This document shows, piece after piece, positions 42,858-55,990 of a DNA stretch of 64,000 nucleotides (positions are counted from its first letter, which is position 1; each line of letters begins with the position of its first letter). Position numbers and translations under genes: made by a program. Below the pieces are notes generated by a model that was not told the origin of the DNA, searched no databases, and saw only the letters and a list, made by a program, of their open reading frames with translations. The stretch comes from a virus (lineage: Duplodnaviria; Heunggongvirae; Uroviricota; Caudoviricetes), in the IMG/VR virus record IMGVR_UViG_2740892441_000001; one strand, written 5' to 3'.

Positions 42858-43277
42858 ATGAAAGTAACAAACCTAATTATTCTGACACTAGCCACATCAC
42901 TAATTGGGTGTTCATCTTCATCTATATCTGTTTCAAAGGCAAAGTATGCGCCTCAAAGCAGAATATTTAAATATCAAACACCACATGAGTCTAGTCTAAC
43001 AATAGTTAGAGACAAAGGGCTGGTTGGTTCTGGATGTAACGCTTCCATATTCATCAATGGAGAAACGGCAGCAAAATTGGAACCTGGTGAAAAAGCAACT
43101 TTCTATCTTAATGAAGGAGATTGGATCGTTGGGACATCAATTGAAAGTTCAGGTCTTTGCGCATTTAACCCCTCTAGGATGGAGCGAGAAATAAAACTAA
43201 AGCAAGGCGACGCGAAAACATATCGGGTTTTCACTACCTGGGATGGTACAATGGATATATTGCCAACCACTTTATAA
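42858..43277 (+). CDS. lipoprotein
   Basis: 139-aa ORF; signal peptide with lipobox LIGC. Confidence 0.5.
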   Translation: MKVTNLIILTLATSLIGCSSSSISVSKAKYAPQSRIFKYQTPHESSLTIVRDKGLVGSGCNASIFINGETAAKLEPGEKATFYLNEGDWIVGTSIESSGLCAFNPSRMEREIKLKQGDAKTYRVFTTWDGTMDILPTTL

Positions 43278-43806
43278 TGATATGACGACGAAAGACATCA
43301 CCTACGGTGTGCCAGCAGAAGTCTGGCCTCGAGATTACACTAACGTTGAAAAACTACTGATGTTCTGGCGCAGAGAACAAATTCCTGTAAGGGCCACTCT
43401 AGAAGATGGCCAGGCGTTTTGCATGTACGTTTATGGCCTCATGCCATCTCGTAACAAAGTTGACCTTTGCCCAGCCCCTTTTGACAAAGAAAATCGTATA
43501 AGGCTCCCACTTGAACGCATTAGTACAATTGAATCAGGTGTGGTTGACAGTATCGCTCACGATTTCAAAGGTCGATTAACAGTTCACCCTGATTATGTCG
43601 ATAATCGGCCATCACGCCGCGATTTTTTTGCTATTTGCAACCAAGCCTATAAAGCAAACAAATCTATAAGGGTGTACATGGCGGATGGCCGTGAAATTGA
43701 GGGGGTGTCAGCAGGCGCAGATGCTTGTCAGGTTACACTACGTGTCGAGAACGGTAGAAAAATAGTTATTTTGTTCGATTGGGTTGAACGAATTTTGCCT
43801 TTTTGA
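43243..43806 (+). CDS. hypothetical protein
   Basis: 187-aa ORF; true start may be the internal Met about 40 nt downstream. Confidence 0.4.
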   Translation: MVQWIYCQPLYNDMTTKDITYGVPAEVWPRDYTNVEKLLMFWRREQIPVRATLEDGQAFCMYVYGLMPSRNKVDLCPAPFDKENRIRLPLERISTIESGVVDSIAHDFKGRLTVHPDYVDNRPSRRDFFAICNQAYKANKSIRVYMADGREIEGVSAGADACQVTLRVENGRKIVILFDWVERILPF

Positions 43807-45984: not shown

Positions 45985-46160
45985 CGCTGGTTGGATTCAA
46001 CCAGCTTCCCGATGTTTTTTCTATATAAAGGCGAATGCAGCCGTTTCCCGAAAAAATCCTGGCCGTTTCCCGTCGGCTCATGAATGCGTTCCTCGCCGTT
46101 TCTGAAAATTTCCCTGCGGCAGCTGGTGGCTATAGAGAAAGGGCCGTTTCTGGCCCTCTT
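45985..46160. repeat. iteron-like array (GCCGTTTCC units)
   Basis: About five direct copies: cagccgtttcccgaaaa, ggccgtttcccgtcgg, cgccgtttctgaaaa, gggccgtttctggccc. Confidence 0.55.
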
Positions 46161-46165
46161 CTCAG

Positions 46166-46648
46166 TTACACGCCATCAAGGATGTGGATGCGGTTGCTTG
46201 CGTATACATTCAGCATAAAGTTAGCGCAAAACAGTTTCCATGTATCAACGCCAGCGGTATACGTAATGTTTTTGCATTTAATCGCATTGTTGGCGATCCG
46301 CATCCCCTGCGATACTGCTTCATCGTCGGAAAATTTGAACGACGATTGAGTTTTAATCCAGACAGAAATCTGCGTAGCGAACTCAATCAGCTTGGACTGG
46401 CAGAATCGCCCGGAGCGCACCGGAAAGACGAACGTTCCGAATCCAGAATTTACCACATACGCTTTCTCAAATACCCGCGAGTAACGACGATTGCCAATGA
46501 TGTCGCGTGCAATAATGCATTTTTCTTGTGCTGACAGTTCTACCGTCTCATTGTCGCGCCATGCACCAAGTACTCGTTTTTCAATGTCAGAGAACGTTAC
46601 AGCGATATTGCCATGTGCGGGTGCGTTTACAGTAGCGATAAAATTCAT
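46166..46648 (-). CDS. hypothetical protein
   Basis: 160-aa ORF preceded by conserved promoter-like motif. Confidence 0.45.
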   Translation of the reverse strand: MNFIATVNAPAHGNIAVTFSDIEKRVLGAWRDNETVELSAQEKCIIARDIIGNRRYSRVFEKAYVVNSGFGTFVFPVRSGRFCQSKLIEFATQISVWIKTQSSFKFSDDEAVSQGMRIANNAIKCKNITYTAGVDTWKLFCANFMLNVYASNRIHILDGV

Positions 46649-46702: not shown

Positions 46703-46735
46703 TTGTACGAATAAGGCGTCAAAGTGGAAAGTTGC

Positions 46736-46826
46736 GGTAGCCGGACGGGAACAGGTGGGTTTTTCGGTTGCCTGGAGGTAAGAGGTTGGTGTTTTTAGCC
46801 TGCGGGAAACAGGATGGTCATTTAAG
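46736..46826. repeat. three direct ~30-bp repeats
   Basis: tagccggacgggaacaggtgggttttt / ggttgcctggaggtaagaggttggtgttttt / agcctgcgggaaacaggatggtcattt. Confidence 0.45.
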
Positions 46827-46852
46827 GCCACCAATGCTGGTGGCCTTAGTCT

Positions 46853-47186: not shown

Positions 47187-47326
47187 CAGTGTAGATAAGG
47201 CATAAAAGAAGTTAATACAGGCTGAATACACAAGAAAGGTTCTGGAAGTTGATAGCCAGGTTTCAAACTAACCTTCGGTTATTAAAAGTCATTTAAGACC
47301 ACCAATGCTGGTGGCCTTAATAATTA

Positions 47327-49303: not shown

Positions 49304-49659
49304 AAATCAATCCTTAAACAACATGTTTTCTTATTGGTGTTATTATCGCAATAACGCATAGGCGAAAAAGGATTTTATTCCGGTGAATGTGGTTTTGGCA
49401 GTGAGTTTTCAGGTTCAGTACCGAGTACACTTTTTACATTATTCTGATTTAGTAGCCGAAGGTGGCTGGTGGGCAGAATAATCATCTCCCCGAAAACCTA
49501 CTGAAATCGATTGTGACCCGCTGACTGTCTGGCACAATTACGCTGTAGTTGGGCATTCAGAGGGAATCCAGCGGTAAGTAAGTTCGCCTGCACGTGAGCG
49601 CCTCTCTTCTTCCCGCACATTACAGGTGGATAGCCGCAACTCTCCCTCTCGCTATACCG

Positions 49660-49805
49660 GTACGCCGCCGTTCCTGAACCGGCATCGAGCCTTTTCCCGA
49701 AATCCACACAGGCAACTCGACCGTTTCCCTGAAAACCTCCAGCCGTTCCCCGAAGGCAACCCAGCCGTTTCTGTAGCGGGATGCAGCCTTTTCCCTGTAT
49801 GGACC
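49660..49805. repeat. iteron-like array (CCGTTTCC / CCTTTTCC units, six copies at ~20-30 bp spacing)
   Basis: gccgttcctgaacc, gccttttcccgaaatcc, accgtttccctgaaaacc, agccgttccccgaagg, agccgtttctgtagcgg, gccttttccctgtatgg. Confidence 0.55.
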
Positions 49806-50399
49806 GAAGGCTGACCGTAGGGGTGTTACGGGGGATAAAATCAGTAGTTGAATAAATACGAAAAAGGAGGCGACACCCCTCCTTCCCTCCCCACTTATAC
49901 ATACCTGGCTTCTTCGCTATGCATGTTGTGTTTTCTTCGTGTTTTATCTGTTTCAACCTCTCTATAGGCGTTAATGCTCACTCCTTCCAGAACGTTCTAT
50001 ACGGCAACTATTTCTGTTGGTGAATTGGGTGTGTTGTTTTCTCTGTCGGTGTATGTGGTTTCGTTCGTTTTGCGGTGGTTCTTCTATAGGGTGTTCTCGT
50101 CGTTTTGGTGATTGTTCTTCTCCGTCTATGGAGTAATGGCAGGTGGGCGATTCCTTTCGTTATTGTGTTTGAGTTGTTTGTCTGGAGTGCGTGAAGGGCT
50201 TTTGTAGTTATTCGTGTATTGGGTAATGGCGTTTCCCGTGATTGTTCTGTTTCGTGTCTTTTGGGATTGAAGAATCCTTGCGGTAACAGGCTTCGTTGGG
50301 GTTTCAGTGATTCTGGTGTTTCTTCGCTGTTTGGGTAATGGCGTGTCGTGGGTATCGCGCGTATGAATGTTTTCGGATTGCCTGTGAAAGTTAGGTTGG

Positions 50400-50465
50400 T
50401 TGTCCGGTAGCCTGGGAAGAAGAGGTGGGTCTTTTCGGTAGCCTGCCATAAAGAGGTTGGTTGTT
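50400..50465. repeat. direct repeat pair in GT-skewed noncoding tract
   Basis: cggtagcctgggaagaagaggtgggtctttt / cggtagcctgccataaagaggttggttgttttt. Confidence 0.45.
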
Positions 50466-50866
50466 TTTGGGAATGGCATATGCGTTATTTAGTTGTTTTG
50501 TTATGCCTGAAAATAAGTTGTTTATATGGTTATGTAACGCAACGGGAACGATTTTGAGCGTGTGTTTTTGTTGGTAGTGTGTTGGGTCGTCTGTGGTGAA
50601 AATTGGACGCTGTGGCGCTGTCTGCTGCGTAGGATTGCGGGTATAAGAAGTAATGTGTGAAAACGTCAATTTTTTAGACCAAATCGGGTGAAAGCGTTGA
50701 CGTTTCGTTGATCTGTTATTCAGTTGTTTTCTTGTTTGTATAAACAACTATAACCTATTGATATTTAAGGGTGTGATTGCAGGTATGGAAGGGGAGTAGT
50801 GGCGATCAACGGATTCTTATAGAAAAGAATCAAATTGTGACCGCCATTATCAATAAGTTGCAACCG

Positions 50867-52271: not shown

Positions 52272-54305
52272 TTACTTAACCTGGTGGCCAGGTTTAGCAC
52301 CAGCATCCGGGCTTAACAGGAAGATGTCTTTCCCGCCGGGGCCAGCAGCCATCACCATGCCTTCGGAGATACCGAAACGCATTTTACGCGGAGCCAGGTT
52401 AGCCACCATAATGGTGTGACGGCCAATCAGTGCCTGTGGGTCTGGATAAGCGGAACGGATGCCTGAGAAGACATTGCGTTTTTCACCGCCGAGATCCAGC
52501 GTCAGGCGCAGCAGTTTGTCAGAACCTTCAACAAAGTCTGCGTTTTCGATCAGCGCCACGCGCAGGTCAACTTTGGCAAAGTCGTCAAAGGTGATGGTTT
52601 CCTGAATCGGGTCGTCTGCCAGCGGGCCAGTAACTGGCGCGGCAGTAGCTTTCACTTCTTCTTTAGACGCTTCCACCAATGCTTCCACCTGTTTCATGTC
52701 GATACGGTTATACAGTGCTTTGAACGGATTCACTTTATGGCCCAGCAGCGGTTGCTGGATACCATCCCAGGTCAGTTCTGTATTCAGGAATGCTTCTGCA
52801 CGTTCAGTCAGTTTCGGCAGTACCGGCTTCAGGTACGTCATCAGCACGCGGAACAGGTTAATGCCCATAGAGCAAATCGCCTGCAGATCGGCATCGCGTC
52901 CTTCCTGCTTCGCCACCACCCACGGAGCCTGTTCATCGACATAGCGGTTAGCCAGGTCAGCCAATGCCATGATTTCACGGATAGCTTTACCAAATTCGCG
53001 GCTTTCCCATGCTTCGCCAATCACTTCAGCGGCATCAGTAAAGGTTTTGTACAGTTGCGAGTCAGCCAGTTCGCTTGCCAGCACGCCGTCAAAACGCTTG
53101 TTGATAAAGCCTGCATTACGGGAGGCCAGGTTAACCACTTTGTTCACGATATCGGCATTCACGCGCTGAACGAAATCCTCCAGGTTGAGATCGATATCAT
53201 CAATGCGCGAAGAGAGTTTCGCAGTGTAGTAGTAACGCAGGCTGTCGGCGTCAAAATGATTCATCCAGGTGCTGGCTTTAATAAAGGTGCCGCGAGACTT
53301 GGACATCTTCGCGCCGTTCACCGTCACATAGCCGTGAACAAACAGGTTGGTCGGCTTGCGGAAGTTGCTGCCTTCCAGCATGGCAGGCCAGAACAGGCTG
53401 TGGAAGTAAACGATATCTTTACCGATGAAGTGGTACAGCTCGGCGGTGGAGTCTTTCTTCCAGTATTCATCGAAGCTGGTAGTGTCGCCGCGCTTGTCGC
53501 ACAGATTCTTGAAGGAACCCATGTAGCCAATCGGTGCGTCCAGCCAGACGTAGAAATATTTACCCGGCGCGTTCGGAATTTCAAAACCGAAGTAAGGTGC
53601 GTCGCGGGAGATATCCCACTGTTGCAGACCAGATTCAAACCACTCCTGCATTTTGTTTGCCACCTGCTCCTGCAACGCACCGCTGCGGGTCCATGCCTGC
53701 AACATTTCGCTGAAAGAGGGCAGATCAAAGAAGAAGTGTTCAGAATCACGCATTACCGGCGTAGCGCCAGAAACTACCGATTTCGGCTCAATCAGTTCAG
53801 TCGGGCTGTAGGTCGCGCCGCAAACTTCACAGTTATCGCCGTATTGATCTGGCGCTTTACATTTCGGACAGGTGCCTTTCACAAAACGATCCGGCAGGAA
53901 CATGCCTTTTTCCGGGTCGTACAACTGAGAGATAGTGCGGTTTTTAATAAAACCGTTCTCTTTCAGGCGAGTATAGATAAGCTCAGACAGCTGGCGGTTC
54001 TCTTCGCTGTGCGTCGAGTGATAGTTGTCATAGCTGATGTTAAAGCCTGCGAAATCAGTCTGGTGTTCCTGGCTCATTTCGCCAATCATCTGTTCCGGTG
54101 TGATACCAAGCTGCTGTGCTTTCAGCATGATCGGCGTACCGTGGGCATCGTCGGCGCAGATGAAGTTGACCTCGTGGCCGCGCATTCGCTGGTAACGGAC
54201 CCAGACATCAGCCTGGATGTGCTCCAGCATATGGCCGAGGTGGATTGAGCCGTTAGCGTACGGCAGCGCGCACGTCACCAGAATTTTCTTCGCGACTTGG
54301 GTCAT
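52272..54305 (-). CDS. metG: methionine--tRNA ligase
   Basis: 677-aa protein from [25 protein letters not shown] (HLGH, KMSKS motifs, C-terminal tRNA-binding domain); matches E. coli MetG as I recall it; the 43-codon N-terminal extension in the ORF track is rejected. Confidence 0.95.
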
Positions 54306-54462
54306 AGTAGGCATTACTTCTTTGTAGTGAAAAGGGGCTTGATAGTAACAAAATGGCCTTATGTCTGCCATGTGATAACAGCATTTCTCATAAATGATTA
54401 AATGTCGTAGCTGGAGTACACTACAAGGCGACAATTGCGCAAATTAAAATAAAGGAGACGGG

Positions 54463-55563
54463 ATGAGCGAGTCCAAATCGCCGGATGCCCTGAGAGCAAT
54501 GGTAGCCGGTACGCTGGCTAATTTTCAGCACCCAACCCTGAAGCACAACCTGACTACGCTTAAAGCGTTACACCATGTTGCGTTGATGGATGACACACTG
54601 CATGTCGAACTAATCATGCCTTTCGTGTGGAATAAGCCTTTTGAAGACCTGAAAGAGCAATGTAGTGGTGATCTGCTCCGTATCACTGGCGCAAAGGCTA
54701 TCGACTGGAAGCTGTCGTACAACATTGCCACGCTTAAGCGCGTCAAAAACCAACCAGGCATTAATGGCGTTAAGAACATCATCGCCGTCAGCTCAGGCAA
54801 GGGCGGTGTAGGCAAATCGTCCACAGCAGTAAACTTGGCACTGGCGTTGGCTGCTGAAGGTGCGAAAGTTGGTATTTTGGATGCCGATATCTACGGTCCA
54901 TCAATTCCAACCATGCTGGGTGCGGAAAACCAACGTCCAACCTCACCGGACGGTACTCACATGGCACCTATCATGTCTCATGGCCTGGCAACCAACTCTA
55001 TTGGTTATCTGGTCACCGACGACAATGCAATGGTGTGGCGTGGACCGATGGCCAGCAAGGCGTTAATGCAGATGTTGCAGGAAACTCTATGGCCTGATCT
55101 GGACTATCTCGTTCTCGATATGCCGCCGGGCACTGGTGATATTCAATTGACGCTGGCGCAGAACATTCCTGTAACTGGTGCTGTTGTGGTAACTACGCCG
55201 CAAGATATCGCGCTGATCGATGCGAAGAAAGGCATTGTGATGTTCGAAAAAGTCGAAGTGCCGGTACTGGGTATCGTCGAAAACATGAGTGTGCATATTT
55301 GCAGTAACTGCGGTCATCACGAGCCAATTTTTGGCACCGGTGGCGCACAGAAGCTGGCCGAGAAATACAACACGCAGTTGTTAGGCCAAATGCCACTTCA
55401 TATCTCTCTTCGTGAAGATCTGGATAACGGAACACCAACCGTTATTAGTCGTCCAGATAGCGAATTTACGGCTATTTATCGTGACCTCGCAGATCGCGTT
55501 GCTGCCCAAATGTATTGGCAAGGTGAAGTAATACCTGGCGAAATCGCATTCCGCGCAGTGTGA
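54463..55563 (+). CDS. apbC: Fe-S cluster carrier ATPase ApbC/Mrp
   Basis: 366-aa ORF; deviant Walker A SGKGGVGKSS; CxxC motif; divergent from metG as in enterobacterial chromosomes. Confidence 0.95.
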   Translation: MSESKSPDALRAMVAGTLANFQHPTLKHNLTTLKALHHVALMDDTLHVELIMPFVWNKPFEDLKEQCSGDLLRITGAKAIDWKLSYNIATLKRVKNQPGINGVKNIIAVSSGKGGVGKSSTAVNLALALAAEGAKVGILDADIYGPSIPTMLGAENQRPTSPDGTHMAPIMSHGLATNSIGYLVTDDNAMVWRGPMASKALMQMLQETLWPDLDYLVLDMPPGTGDIQLTLAQNIPVTGAVVVTTPQDIALIDAKKGIVMFEKVEVPVLGIVENMSVHICSNCGHHEPIFGTGGAQKLAEKYNTQLLGQMPLHISLREDLDNGTPTVISRPDSEFTAIYRDLADRVAAQMYWQGEVIPGEIAFRAV

Positions 55564-55600: not shown

Positions 55601-55990
55601 CTACATCACAGGACAATCATCAAACTCGCCACTTCTTGCGTCGTTGATAATGTGAGTGATCACACCAAACACGGCATTGCTGCCCGTGCATCCATCATCA
55701 TCCTTTGGCAATGCTTCCTTCTTACCAGTTCTTAAATCCTCCAGATGCTGACGTGGATACTTCCGGTATCTTTTTACGCGATATTCCCCATCCAGAGCAC
55801 ATACAAGAAGAGATCCATCAACAGGAGTGAGTGAGGAATCGACCACCAGCAATGCACCCTGCAATATTCCCTCACGATGATGACTATCAGCCGCCCTCAT
55901 GAAGTAGGTCGCTGAAGGATGTCTAATTATCTGCTGATCAAGAGAAATACGGCTCTCTGCATAATCCGCCGCAGGAGATGGGAAGCCCAT
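55601..55990 (-). CDS. UmuD'-like (HumD-type) S24 peptidase-fold protein
   Basis: 129-aa ORF starting MGFPSPAADY, i.e. at the position of the UmuD Cys24-Gly25 cleavage site; Ser/Lys dyad context retained (DSH, VKR); GAGGTG SD. Confidence 0.8.
   Translation of the reverse strand: MGFPSPAADYAESRISLDQQIIRHPSATYFMRAADSHHREGILQGALLVVDSSLTPVDGSLLVCALDGEYRVKRYRKYPRQHLEDLRTGKKEALPKDDDGCTGSNAVFGVITHIINDARSGEFDDCPVM

What the first reader, a model, noticed from the sequence alone, without database searches (positions are those of the whole stretch)
49950..50780. GT-skewed noncoding tract of ~800 bp with internal direct repeats
The plus strand is strongly G+T-rich and only low-complexity ORFs are present. 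Repeats include gggtaatggcg (three times) and a ~30-bp direct repeat pair at 50406-50465 that resembles the triple repeat at 46736-46826. It could be an origin-associated region, a structured noncoding RNA or an antitermination/processing region.
Basis: seen in the sequence. Interest (0 to 1): 0.45.

Follow-up and report, generated by a model that had tools for sequence, protein, structure and literature searches.

The report
Strand-skewed noncoding spacer of SSU5-like phage-plasmids
The G+T-rich stretch is a real, non-coding module conserved in a widespread family of phage-plasmids; its opposite strand would give the least foldable RNA in the window, and it most likely stops transcription between swappable cargo genes and early phage genes, though its function is unproven.

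Summary
The skew is real and extreme. G+T is 0.65-0.76 over about 750 bp, the only such stretch in a 112.7-kb relative. The window is an E. coli SSU5-like phage-plasmid (97% identical to phage Cyrano/pLF82).

The tract does not code for protein: homologues differ by frame-shifting indels, no frame stays open, and there are no Pfam or PHROG hits. It is part of a roughly 1.5-kb gene-free block (49315-50860) found in essentially every enterobacterial SSU5-like element. Xenorhabdus and Moellerella relatives carry a tract with the same position, polarity and layout that earlier DNA searches from the window had not returned.

On the minus strand it reads C+A-rich (72%). Its 150-nt windows take 8 of the 10 least foldable places among 852 in the 64 kb. 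The plus strand folds normally. It carries conserved repeat motifs and ends in a hairpin that always folds better on the minus strand.

In Cyrano lysogens the RNA is absent (0 FPKM), although the upstream gene is expressed and no intrinsic terminator was found between them. Yersinia pMT1 keeps repA and a ParA/ParB-type gene pair without the tract, so it is not the plasmid origin.

My best reading, at modest confidence, is a long Rho-loading terminator that insulates early genes from the cargo region. A lytic-phase decoy RNA or a DNA binding-site array remain open.

The parts
50640..50860 (-). Conserved 'head', starting a few bases after the stop codon of whatever cargo gene lies upstream. It contains: inverted repeat TGGCGGTCA (50846-50838) / TGATCGCCA (50808-50800) around TATAAG (50821-50816); leader box TACAAACAAGAAAACAA (50740-50724); CGTTGAY/RTCAACG sites (50811-50805, 50712-50706, 50701-50695); inverted repeat AAACGTCAA (50705-50697) / TTGACGTTT (50669-50661); and a weak promoter candidate, TTGACG (50669-50664), 17 nt, TTATAC (50646-50641).
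   Evidence: 60-85% of columns are invariant among four lineages whose tracts are otherwise about 67% identical. The similarity to Cyrano runs up to 50854. The leader box belongs to a 6-member minus-strand family (0.33 expected by chance). The same layout is seen in Xenorhabdus and Moellerella.
49990..50639 (-). C+A-rich body (A 39.8%, C 32.4%, G 13.2%, T 14.6% on the minus strand). This is the G+T-rich tract of the finding.
   Evidence: Composition and C-minus-G of +15 per 78 nt, at or above the 99th percentile of the window. Minus-strand RNA MFE is -7 to -19 kcal/mol per 150 nt against -36.9 +/- 7.6 for the window; tract windows take 8 of the 10 least structured places among 852. The skew is kept at variable alignment columns. 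All homologues show it.
50378..50461 (-). Three tandem units of about 31 nt: ACC[AC]ACCT, 9-13 nt, [CA]GGC[TA]A (50461-50439, 50430-50408, 50400-50378). They are the same family as the three units at 46826-46731, just upstream of the promoter-like region (TTGACG, GATAAT) of gene 46166-46648.
   Evidence: Conserved in SSU5, Klebsiella, Xenorhabdus and Moellerella. The 46.7-kb copy is also kept in pMT1.
50112..50345 (-). Repeated motif ..ACGCCATTAC[CT]C.A.ACA(CGGAG)AAGAAC. Copies start at 50345, 50233 and 50143, with a degenerate copy near 50478.
   Evidence: There are 2-5 copies per element (4-5 in most) at conserved positions, all in one orientation. Morganellaceae relatives carry A(C/T)ACGTCA..A..AACAG at the equivalent places.
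50502..50523 (-). Palindrome-like AAACAACTTATTTT (50523-50510), near a second, weaker copy of the leader box at 50502-50476. Both resemble the operator-like AAACAA..TTGTTT that follows the early-gene promoter-like regions.
   Evidence: I12, I16, D12.
49861..49899 (-). Tail: TATAAG (49899-49894), then a purine-arm/pyrimidine-arm hairpin followed by TTTTTCGTATTTATT. This is terminator-like on the minus strand.
   Evidence: A hairpin sits at the same spot in every lineage, with different stem sequences. All 20 distinct variants fold better as minus-strand RNA (mean -12.3 kcal/mol) than as plus-strand RNA (-7.3), meaning they use G.U pairs. The U-tail is weak in the SSU5 lineage.
49663..49796 (-). 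About six iteron-like (C/A)GGGAAA(A/C)GGC repeats spaced 20-30 nt, downstream of the tail hairpin. A second cluster lies at 46150-46038.
   Evidence: Conserved in all lineages, including Xenorhabdus and Moellerella. This lies outside the reported coordinates but inside the same gene-free block.

Best explanation
The tract is the body of a conserved, non-coding module of SSU5-like phage-plasmids. The module sits where the swappable cargo region meets a cluster of small genes of unknown function, read here as early lytic genes.

Read on the minus strand, the direction in which almost all neighbouring genes run, the tract gives about 650-750 nt of untranslated RNA. That RNA is C-rich, G-poor and almost unable to fold.

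My preferred mechanism is co-transcriptional. RNA polymerase entering from the cargo side, or starting in the conserved head, makes naked C-rich RNA. Termination factor Rho loads on that RNA and stops transcription. The conserved hairpin at 49887-49861 is a back-up stop. The module would then act as a cargo-independent firewall that keeps the downstream early genes silent in the lysogen.

Shown: the composition, the lack of coding, the conservation, the lack of structure on one strand only, and the absence of RNA in lysogens. Inferred: the involvement of Rho and the insulating role. Not explained by this model: the repeated sequence motifs. They suggest a second function that needs a sequence-specific partner.
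For: - The minus strand has C-minus-G of +15 per 78 nt across 650 nt, at or above the 99th percentile of the window, and 13.7 YC dinucleotides per 100 nt against 9.5 for the whole strand.
- Its 150-nt windows take 8 of the 10 least structured places among 852 on the minus strand, while the plus-strand RNA is ordinary.
- The skew persists at variable alignment columns (64.5% A+C), so composition itself is maintained.
- A skewed tract sits at the same syntenic place, with the same polarity, in Xenorhabdus and Moellerella relatives (helicase 59% identical) that none of the DNA searches from the window had returned.
- In Cyrano (97% identical), CYRAN_103, which covers half the tract on this strand, has log2(FPKM+5) = 2.32, meaning 0 FPKM, in LB, and at most about 14 FPKM in other conditions. 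CYRAN_102 immediately upstream has 57 and up to about 590 (PMC9928086 table S1).
- The consensus scan found no intrinsic terminator between those two genes.
- The conserved block begins within about 10 nt of the upstream stop codon, whatever the upstream gene is.
- The tail hairpin is more stable on the minus strand in 20 of 20 variants.
- The head carries a leader box of a family found only on the minus strand, so the tract is laid out like its neighbouring transcription units.
Against: - No experiment shows Rho dependence.
- Canonical rut sites are about 80 nt (general knowledge); this tract is 8-10 times longer.
- Rho loading needs no specific sequence, so it does not explain the motifs conserved across families.
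- In the Klebsiella lineage the neighbouring cargo (DUF262, type I restriction-modification) is on the other strand and reads away from the tract, yet the tract is kept. Blocking read-through cannot be its only role.
- Low RNA could also reflect fast decay, or simply no transcription of a DNA-level element.
- The RNA-seq counts are per annotated gene, not per base.
Confidence: 0.35

Rival explanations
1. DNA-level cis element. The head and the repeated motifs are binding sites for one or more phage proteins (a regulator, a lytic-replication initiator or a packaging protein). The keto skew would serve the DNA, for example by giving single strands that cannot form hairpins when unwound.
For: - The motifs are conserved while the spacers between them drift.
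- CGTTGAY/RTCAACG sites cluster in the head: 3 exact copies in 220 bp against 25 in 64 kb.
- There are two inverted repeats with loops of about 30 bp.
- The ~31-nt units also occur upstream of a promoter-like region at 46.7 kb.
- GGGAAACGG iteron-like arrays flank the small-gene cluster at two places.
- The region is transcriptionally silent in every condition tested.
Against: - Motif spacings (135, 112, 90; 142, 135, 41, 52) are not in helical phase.
- All body motifs point the same way.
- The tail hairpin uses G.U pairs, which points to RNA.
- The one-strand-only loss of RNA structure has no obvious use for double-stranded binding sites.
- There are no DnaA boxes and no skew switch.
- pMT1 replicates and partitions without the tract.
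- No candidate binding protein was identified; all neighbours are PHROGs of unknown function.
Confidence: 0.25
2. Trans-acting, deliberately unstructured long noncoding RNA of about 0.8 kb. It would be made from the head promoter only during infection or induction, and would act as a decoy for a single-strand RNA binder (Rho, Hfq, S1, a phage protein such as the FljA-like repressor) or for G/U-rich small RNAs.
For: - It is laid out as a transcription unit: leader box of the early-gene family, TTGACG-N17-TTATAC candidate promoter, and a 3' hairpin favoured on the minus strand.
- Composition is selected at variable sites.
- The RNA has minimal structure.
- Repeated conserved motifs in one orientation are typical of sponge RNAs.
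- An RNA-binding-type FljA-like protein (PF03614) is conserved in the same elements.
Against: - The RNA stays at 0-14 FPKM, even in macrophage samples where neighbouring early genes reach about 180-220 FPKM and the capsid gene reaches about 160-220 FPKM.
- There is no enrichment of ARN (Hfq) or GGA (CsrA) motifs over composition.
- The candidate promoter lacks the -7 T and is not found by the consensus scan.
- No full lytic transcriptome is available.
Confidence: 0.2
3. Functionless relic: an array of decayed, duplicated promoter-leader modules of the small early genes, kept by hitch-hiking between selected neighbours.
For: The tract contains recognisable pieces of the early-gene promoter-like regions: the leader box at 50740-50724 and a weaker copy near 50502, the ~31-nt units followed by TTCATACGCGCGATACC (compare TTCGTACAACGATAAT), and the AAACAA..TTGTTT palindrome.
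Against: - It is kept in essentially every enterobacterial SSU5-like plasmid: tract versus terminase counts are Enterobacter 90/91, Salmonella 49/49, Citrobacter 25/25, Shigella 7/7.
- Architecture and skew are conserved out to Morganellaceae.
- Within the E. coli lineage, diversity in the body (pi 0.026) is below that of neighbouring third codon positions (0.065).
- Junk DNA would not hold 72% A+C on one strand.
Confidence: 0.1
4. Plasmid replication origin or incompatibility locus (one of the reader's ideas), or a low-complexity protein gene.
For: Iteron-like repeats lie nearby. Two ORFs of 117-118 aa are annotated as hypothetical proteins in Cyrano.
Against: - pMT1 keeps repA and a ParA/ParB-type gene pair and is maintained without the tract.
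- By synteny with pMT1 I place repA about 33 kb away in NZ_CP061757.1; this is inferred, because no repA is listed in that record's gene table.
- There are no DnaA boxes.
- Frames are broken by indels and annotations disagree between records.
- There is no Pfam or PHROG family.
Confidence: 0.04

Closest known systems
Rho-utilisation (rut) regions of Rho-dependent terminators, e.g. lambda tR1 rutA/rutB (from general knowledge)
   Same: Untranslated, C-rich, G-poor, unstructured RNA that begins right after a stop codon. The transcript signal disappears with no intrinsic terminator found.
   Different: It is about 650-750 nt rather than about 80 nt. It carries sequence motifs conserved across bacterial families. 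It is retained where no gene reads into it (Klebsiella lineage). It has a dedicated conserved head and a 3' hairpin. Rho dependence is untested.
Protein-sponge RNAs (CsrB/RsmZ, CrcZ)
   Same: Noncoding, with several copies of a short conserved motif in one orientation.
   Different: There is no GGA or A-rich (ARN) enrichment. The motifs do not consistently lie in hairpin loops. The RNA is 2-7 times longer. It is not detected in lysogens.
Iteron or operator arrays of phage-plasmids (P1 incA, P4 ori/crr; from general knowledge)
   Same: Clusters of repeated motifs in noncoding DNA of a phage-plasmid, with a second related cluster a few kb away (46.0-46.8 kb).
   Different: It is far from repA, dispensable in pMT1, irregularly spaced and extremely strand-skewed, with no AT-rich unwinding element or DnaA boxes.
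Type III antitoxin repeat arrays (ToxI and relatives; from general knowledge)
   Same: Tandem direct repeats of about 31 nt (3 units), present twice in the element.
   Different: No ToxN/AbiQ-like gene was recognised next to either array (Pfam; PHROGs of unknown function). At 46.7 kb the units lie between a terminator and a promoter-like region, not between a promoter and a terminator.
RfaH ops element (GGCGGTAGnnTG, recalled from memory)
   Same: The plus strand of the ~31-nt units reads CGGTAGCCTG (50405-50447).
   Different: The first two G are missing. It would require plus-strand transcription against all neighbours. Morganellaceae copies read GGTTGCC instead. I treat it as a chance resemblance.

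Membership tests
Rho-dependent terminator / rut region | C-rich, G-poor RNA over at least about 80 nt | tested here: met
   C 32.4%, G 13.2%. C-minus-G averages +15 per 78 nt over 650 nt, at or above the window's 99th percentile.
Rho-dependent terminator / rut region | Little secondary structure in the nascent RNA | tested here: met
   MFE of -7 to -19 kcal/mol per 150 nt against -36.9 +/- 7.6; tract windows take 8 of the 10 least structured places among 852.
Rho-dependent terminator / rut region | Untranslated RNA downstream of a translated gene | tested here: met
   No conserved frame. The block starts within about 10 nt of the upstream stop codon in the window, Cyrano and SSU5 lineages. This does not hold in Klebsiella, where the neighbouring gene is divergent.
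Rho-dependent terminator / rut region | Transcripts end there with no intrinsic terminator | tested here: inconclusive
   Published per-gene counts fall from 57-590 to 0-14 FPKM between CYRAN_102 and CYRAN_103, and the consensus scan found no terminator between them. There are no per-base or 3'-end data.
Rho-dependent terminator / rut region | Termination depends on Rho (bicyclomycin or rho mutants) | not testable with these tools
   Needs an experiment.
Iteron-type plasmid origin / incompatibility locus | Adjacent to the rep gene and needed for plasmid maintenance | tested here: not met
   pMT1 has repA and a ParA/ParB-type gene pair, lacks the tract and is a stable plasmid. By synteny, repA in the E. 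coli relative lies about 33 kb away (inferred).
Iteron-type plasmid origin / incompatibility locus | DnaA boxes, and a GC-skew polarity switch at the site | tested here: not met
   No TTWTNCACA between 45881 and 64000. GC content of the tract is 43-46%. Cumulative skew falls overall, with only a local spike at the tract.
Structured noncoding RNA (any Rfam family) | Match to a covariance model, or folding energy beyond shuffles | tested here: not met
   No Rfam hit at gathering score, and only one chance-level hit (E = 2), which lies outside the tract. Fold z-scores are -0.95 (minus) and +1.58 (plus).
Protein-coding gene | Reading frame and protein similarity conserved among homologues | tested here: not met
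   Indels of 1, 2, 11, 22, 23 and 31 nt; longest open frames differ in frame and length in every lineage. No Pfam or PHROG hit. RefSeq leaves the region unannotated in the listed hits among 838 plasmids and 240 E. coli genomes.
CsrB/CrcZ-type protein sponge RNA | Enrichment of the binding motif (GGA, or A-rich ARN runs) | tested here: not met
   GGA: 5 observed against 4.4 expected. ARNx3: 5 against 6.0. ARNx4: 1 against 1.25.
Type III toxin-antitoxin (ToxIN-like) | Tandem repeats followed by a terminator and a ToxN-family endoribonuclease gene | tested here: not met
   Three ~31-nt units are present, but no ToxN-like domain is found in the adjacent ORFs, and the order of elements is wrong at 46.7 kb.

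The most novel reading that the evidence does not exclude
SSU5-like phage-plasmids carry a dedicated noncoding gene for an RNA selected to be unfoldable: about 0.8 kb, 72% C+A, studded with conserved single-stranded motifs. It would be made only during lytic growth and would act in trans as a decoy that ties up Rho or another single-strand RNA-binding factor, reprogramming host termination or translation. Alternatively, the same DNA is a new kind of cis site (a lytic origin or injection-control region) whose strand asymmetry is itself the signal.
Probability: 0.2. Interest if true: 0.75.

Novelty: new variant of a known kind. Interest (0 to 1): 0.5.

Why it matters
SSU5-like phage-plasmids are common. 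The tract is on plasmids of 240 of 5426 complete E. coli genomes and on 838 PLSDB plasmids of Klebsiella, Enterobacter, Salmonella (including Typhi pHCM2) and other genera. These elements carry defence, virulence and resistance cargo next to this very module.

A conserved 0.75-1.5 kb non-coding block with the most extreme strand composition in the element was not described in any of the papers I could search. If it is a cargo-independent transcriptional firewall, it would explain how these elements can swap expressed cargo genes without waking their lytic genes, and it would be a ready-made insulator part. If it proves to be a decoy RNA or a lytic-cycle DNA site, it would be a new regulatory principle.

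It also shows that the ORFs annotated here in some phage records (CYRAN_103, CYRAN_104, SSU5_108, SSU5_109) are almost certainly spurious.

Tried and rejected
- Rfam at gathering and permissive thresholds: nothing.
- tRNA/tmRNA scan: none.
- Global folding of either strand: not better than shuffles.
- Coding: rejected.
- Plasmid origin: rejected through pMT1, DnaA boxes and cumulative skew.
- Leading-region or single-strand-promoter idea, raised by a copy near psiA in a 200-kb Klebsiella plasmid: rejected. Those copies are IS- or Tn-truncated fragments dragged along with the DUF262 + type I restriction-modification island.
- Internal similarity of the tract to the rest of the plasmid (for example rep-proximal iterons): none.
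- Hfq (ARN) and CsrA (GGA) motif enrichment: none.
- Compensatory changes in the two head inverted repeats: the arms are nearly invariant, or change without compensation, so this is uninformative.
- Formal pair counting on the tail hairpin: abandoned, because the purine and pyrimidine arms pair in different registers in different lineages. The strand-specific energy comparison was used instead.
- Antisense idea, that the motif GCCAUUACUCC is complementary to a Shine-Dalgarno + AUG region: only a 10-nt match to one gene junction (29967), so not pursued.
- More distant relatives (helicase 45-50% identical; L066-L068) and Morganella L064: no clear skewed tract within the 10 kb fetched.
- Literature searches for any description, transcriptome or termini mapping of this region: nothing relevant beyond the LF82/Cyrano table.
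- Neighbouring small proteins: all belong to PHROGs of unknown function.

Full report
**What the window is.** The region 49400-50854 is 97% identical to Escherichia phage Cyrano (pLF82) and 67-73% identical to Salmonella phage SSU5 and to Klebsiella phage-plasmids. The window carries the matching structural, terminase, helicase and ParB-like genes. It is therefore an SSU5-like phage-plasmid of E. coli. Nearly all genes run on the minus strand.

**Checking the observation.** The skew is real. Between about 49950 and 50750 the plus strand has GC skew +0.38 to +0.51 and AT skew down to -0.61, while the rest of the window sits near -0.1. In 300-nt windows G+T reaches 0.75 against a mean of 0.50 (sd 0.04). 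In the complete 112.7-kb relative NZ_CP061757.1 the homologous tract is the only place above 0.64.

The ~30-nt repeat pair and its kinship with the triple repeat at 46731-46826 are confirmed. The word GGGTAATGGCG is exact only twice, with a third variant copy.

**It is not a gene.** An alignment of 15 lineages shows indels of 1, 2, 11, 22, 23 and 31 nt, and the longest open frames change frame and length from one lineage to the next. The two ORFs of 117-118 aa have no Pfam or PHROG family. Cyrano and SSU5 annotate different ORFs on different strands. RefSeq annotates nothing in the listed hits among 838 plasmids and 240 E. coli genomes.

**It is conserved, and larger than reported.** The whole block 49315-50860 is gene-free and alignable in E. 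coli, Salmonella (SSU5, Typhi pHCM2), Enterobacter, Citrobacter and Klebsiella elements. G+T is 0.65-0.77 in every one.

Counts of plasmids with the tract match counts with the terminase gene: Enterobacter 90/91, Salmonella 49/49, Citrobacter 25/25, Cronobacter 9/10, Shigella 7/7.

Using the neighbouring helicase as a handle, I fetched relatives from Xenorhabdus hominickii and Moellerella wisconsensis, whose helicases are 59% identical. Both have a gene-free gap at the same place, holding a 600-700 bp tract with G+T 0.69-0.74 and the same polarity. The layout is also the same:
- a head with TTGAC-N5-TATAAG-N6-TTGAC and GATCAACG.AAAGTCAACG-N25-AAAAAGTTGA;
- a C+A-rich body with tandem ACC[AC]ACCT...AGGCAA units and three to five copies of an ACG(C/T)CA..AC..AACAG motif;
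- a tail of GTATAAG, a hairpin and CCGTATTTAT;
- then GGGAAACGG repeats.

More distant relatives showed no clear tract in the 10 kb fetched.

**Which strand matters.** Composition is held even at variable alignment columns (64.5% A+C on the minus strand; 76% at invariant columns), so it is maintained in its own right. Its consequence falls on one strand only. As RNA, the minus strand folds at -7 to -19 kcal/mol per 150 nt, against -36.9 +/- 7.6 for the window. Its windows take 8 of the 10 least structured places among 852. The plus-strand RNA is ordinary, at -29 to -38.

The hairpin at the downstream end sits at a fixed place but has different stems in different lineages. In all 20 distinct variants it is more stable read on the minus strand (mean -12.3 against -7.3 kcal/mol), which means it relies on G.U pairs.

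The head carries a leader box (TACAAACAAGAAAACAA, 50740-50724). This box belongs to a six-member family, where 0.33 would be expected by chance. All members lie on the minus strand, and at the sites I checked the box precedes a minus-strand start codon. The tract is thus laid out like its neighbouring transcription units, but with a non-coding body. Neither strand shows more structure than shuffled controls, and Rfam finds nothing.

**What it is not.** Yersinia pestis pMT1 is a defective relative. It keeps repA, a ParA/ParB-type gene pair and the homologues of 45.0-47.2 kb, including the ~31-nt units. An IS1541 gene now sits where the homology ends, and the tract is missing. The tract is therefore not needed for plasmid replication or partition.

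By synteny with pMT1, repA in the E. coli relative should lie about 33 kb away (inferred, since no repA is listed in that record's table). There are no DnaA boxes, and cumulative GC skew does not turn at the tract. Partial copies in large Klebsiella plasmids are IS- or Tn-truncated passengers of a DUF262 + type I restriction-modification island.

**Expression.** The only transcriptome I found is the LF82/Cyrano re-analysis (PMC9928086, table S1). The paper plots transcription separately for the two strands, but I could not confirm that the per-gene counts are strand-specific.

| Gene | Position | LB (FPKM) | Other conditions (FPKM) |
|---|---|---|---|
| CYRAN_102 | immediately upstream, same strand | 57 | up to about 590 |
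| CYRAN_103 | window 50391-50747, minus strand | 0 (log2(FPKM+5) = 2.32) | at most about 14 |
| CYRAN_105 | downstream | 13 | up to about 220 |

The consensus scan found no intrinsic terminator between CYRAN_102 and the tract. The tract is therefore a transcriptional valley, even though it lies directly behind an expressed gene.

**Interpretation.** The minus-strand RNA is untranslated, C-rich (C-minus-G of +15 per 78 nt across 650 nt) and unfoldable. It begins right after a stop codon, and transcripts vanish with no intrinsic terminator found. This is what a Rho-loading (rut) region looks like, stretched to 8-10 times the usual length and closed by a back-up hairpin.

The right edge of the conserved head coincides with the point where lineages differ in cargo. 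The neighbour is a 189-aa ORF here, a coiled-coil protein in Cyrano, a 399-aa protein in SSU5, and DUF262 with restriction-modification genes in Klebsiella. I therefore favour a cargo-independent transcriptional firewall that shields the downstream genes, with confidence about 0.35.

Two facts do not fit a pure firewall. The motifs are conserved across bacterial families. And the tract is kept in Klebsiella, where the neighbouring gene reads away from it. Two rivals therefore stay alive:
- a DNA binding-site array for a phage regulator or a lytic replication or packaging protein (0.25);
- a lytic-phase decoy RNA (0.2), weakened by the low counts even in partly induced samples and by the lack of Hfq or CsrA motif enrichment.

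A functionless relic of duplicated promoter-leader modules (the tract does contain such pieces) is unlikely, given the conservation and the low diversity within E. coli (pi 0.026 against 0.065 at neighbouring third codon positions).

**Novelty.** None of my literature searches found a description of this block. If the firewall reading holds, it is a new, oversized variant of a known kind of signal. If not, it may be something new.

Noticed in passing
window 46122, 46836, 47307, 49465 (plus strand): Four Chi sites (GCTGGTGG) in the same orientation within 3.4 kb. Two of them sit in the loops of terminator hairpins, GGCCACCAATGCTGGTGGCC (46822-46849, 47293-47320).
   Followed up: no
window 49663-49796 and 46038-46150 (minus strand): Two clusters of iteron-like (C/A)GGGAAA(A/C)GGC repeats, spaced 20-30 nt, flank the small-gene cluster. 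They are conserved out to Xenorhabdus and Moellerella. No binding protein or function is known.
   Followed up: partly
window 46676, 47161, 49323, 50724, 8194, 60250 (minus strand): A family of near-identical promoter/leader modules: (TTGACG)..CGATAAT.ACACCAACAAGAAAACAA, often followed by an AAACAA..TTGTTT palindrome, then about 25 nt to the ATG. It looks like a co-regulated set of small transcription units.
   Followed up: partly
window 43243-43806 (+): A homologue of FljA, the repressor of phase-1 flagellin (PF03614, E = 1e-83, weak Hfq-like signal). It is conserved in Xenorhabdus, Moellerella and Morganella relatives. From general knowledge FljA acts on fliC mRNA, so this is an RNA-binding-type regulator with an unknown target in the phage-plasmid.
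   Followed up: no
window 52272-54434 (-), 54463-55563 (+), 55601-55990 (-): The element carries a full-length methionyl-tRNA synthetase gene, an ApbC/Mrp-type iron-sulfur carrier ATPase, and a 129-aa S24 peptidase (LexA-like) protein with no DNA-binding domain detected. The S24 protein is highly expressed in Cyrano lysogens.
   Followed up: no
window 50854-50860: Similarity between the window and Cyrano ends at the right edge of the conserved head. The adjacent gene differs in every lineage, so this edge is a boundary of a cargo/defence hotspot.
   Followed up: partly
L065 21350-21375 (Moellerella); compare L063 21310-21340: In the Moellerella relative the head contains a canonical intrinsic terminator (AAGCCTC TTTTT GAGGC TTTTTT), degenerate in Xenorhabdus, which the E. 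coli, SSU5 and Klebsiella lineages lack at that place.
   Followed up: no
window 50405-50447 (plus strand) and 46731-46826: The ~31-nt units read CGGTAGCCTG on the plus strand, which resembles the RfaH ops element (recalled from memory). On the minus strand they read CCACCTCTT, which resembles the anti-Shine-Dalgarno end of 16S rRNA. Neither resemblance is conserved in Morganellaceae.
   Followed up: partly
L001 5993-6349 and 5099-5503; L002 4954-5151 and 5527-5766: CYRAN_103, CYRAN_104, SSU5_108 and SSU5_109 are annotated as hypothetical proteins inside the non-coding block. They lie on different strands and frames in the two records and are probably spurious.
   Followed up: yes
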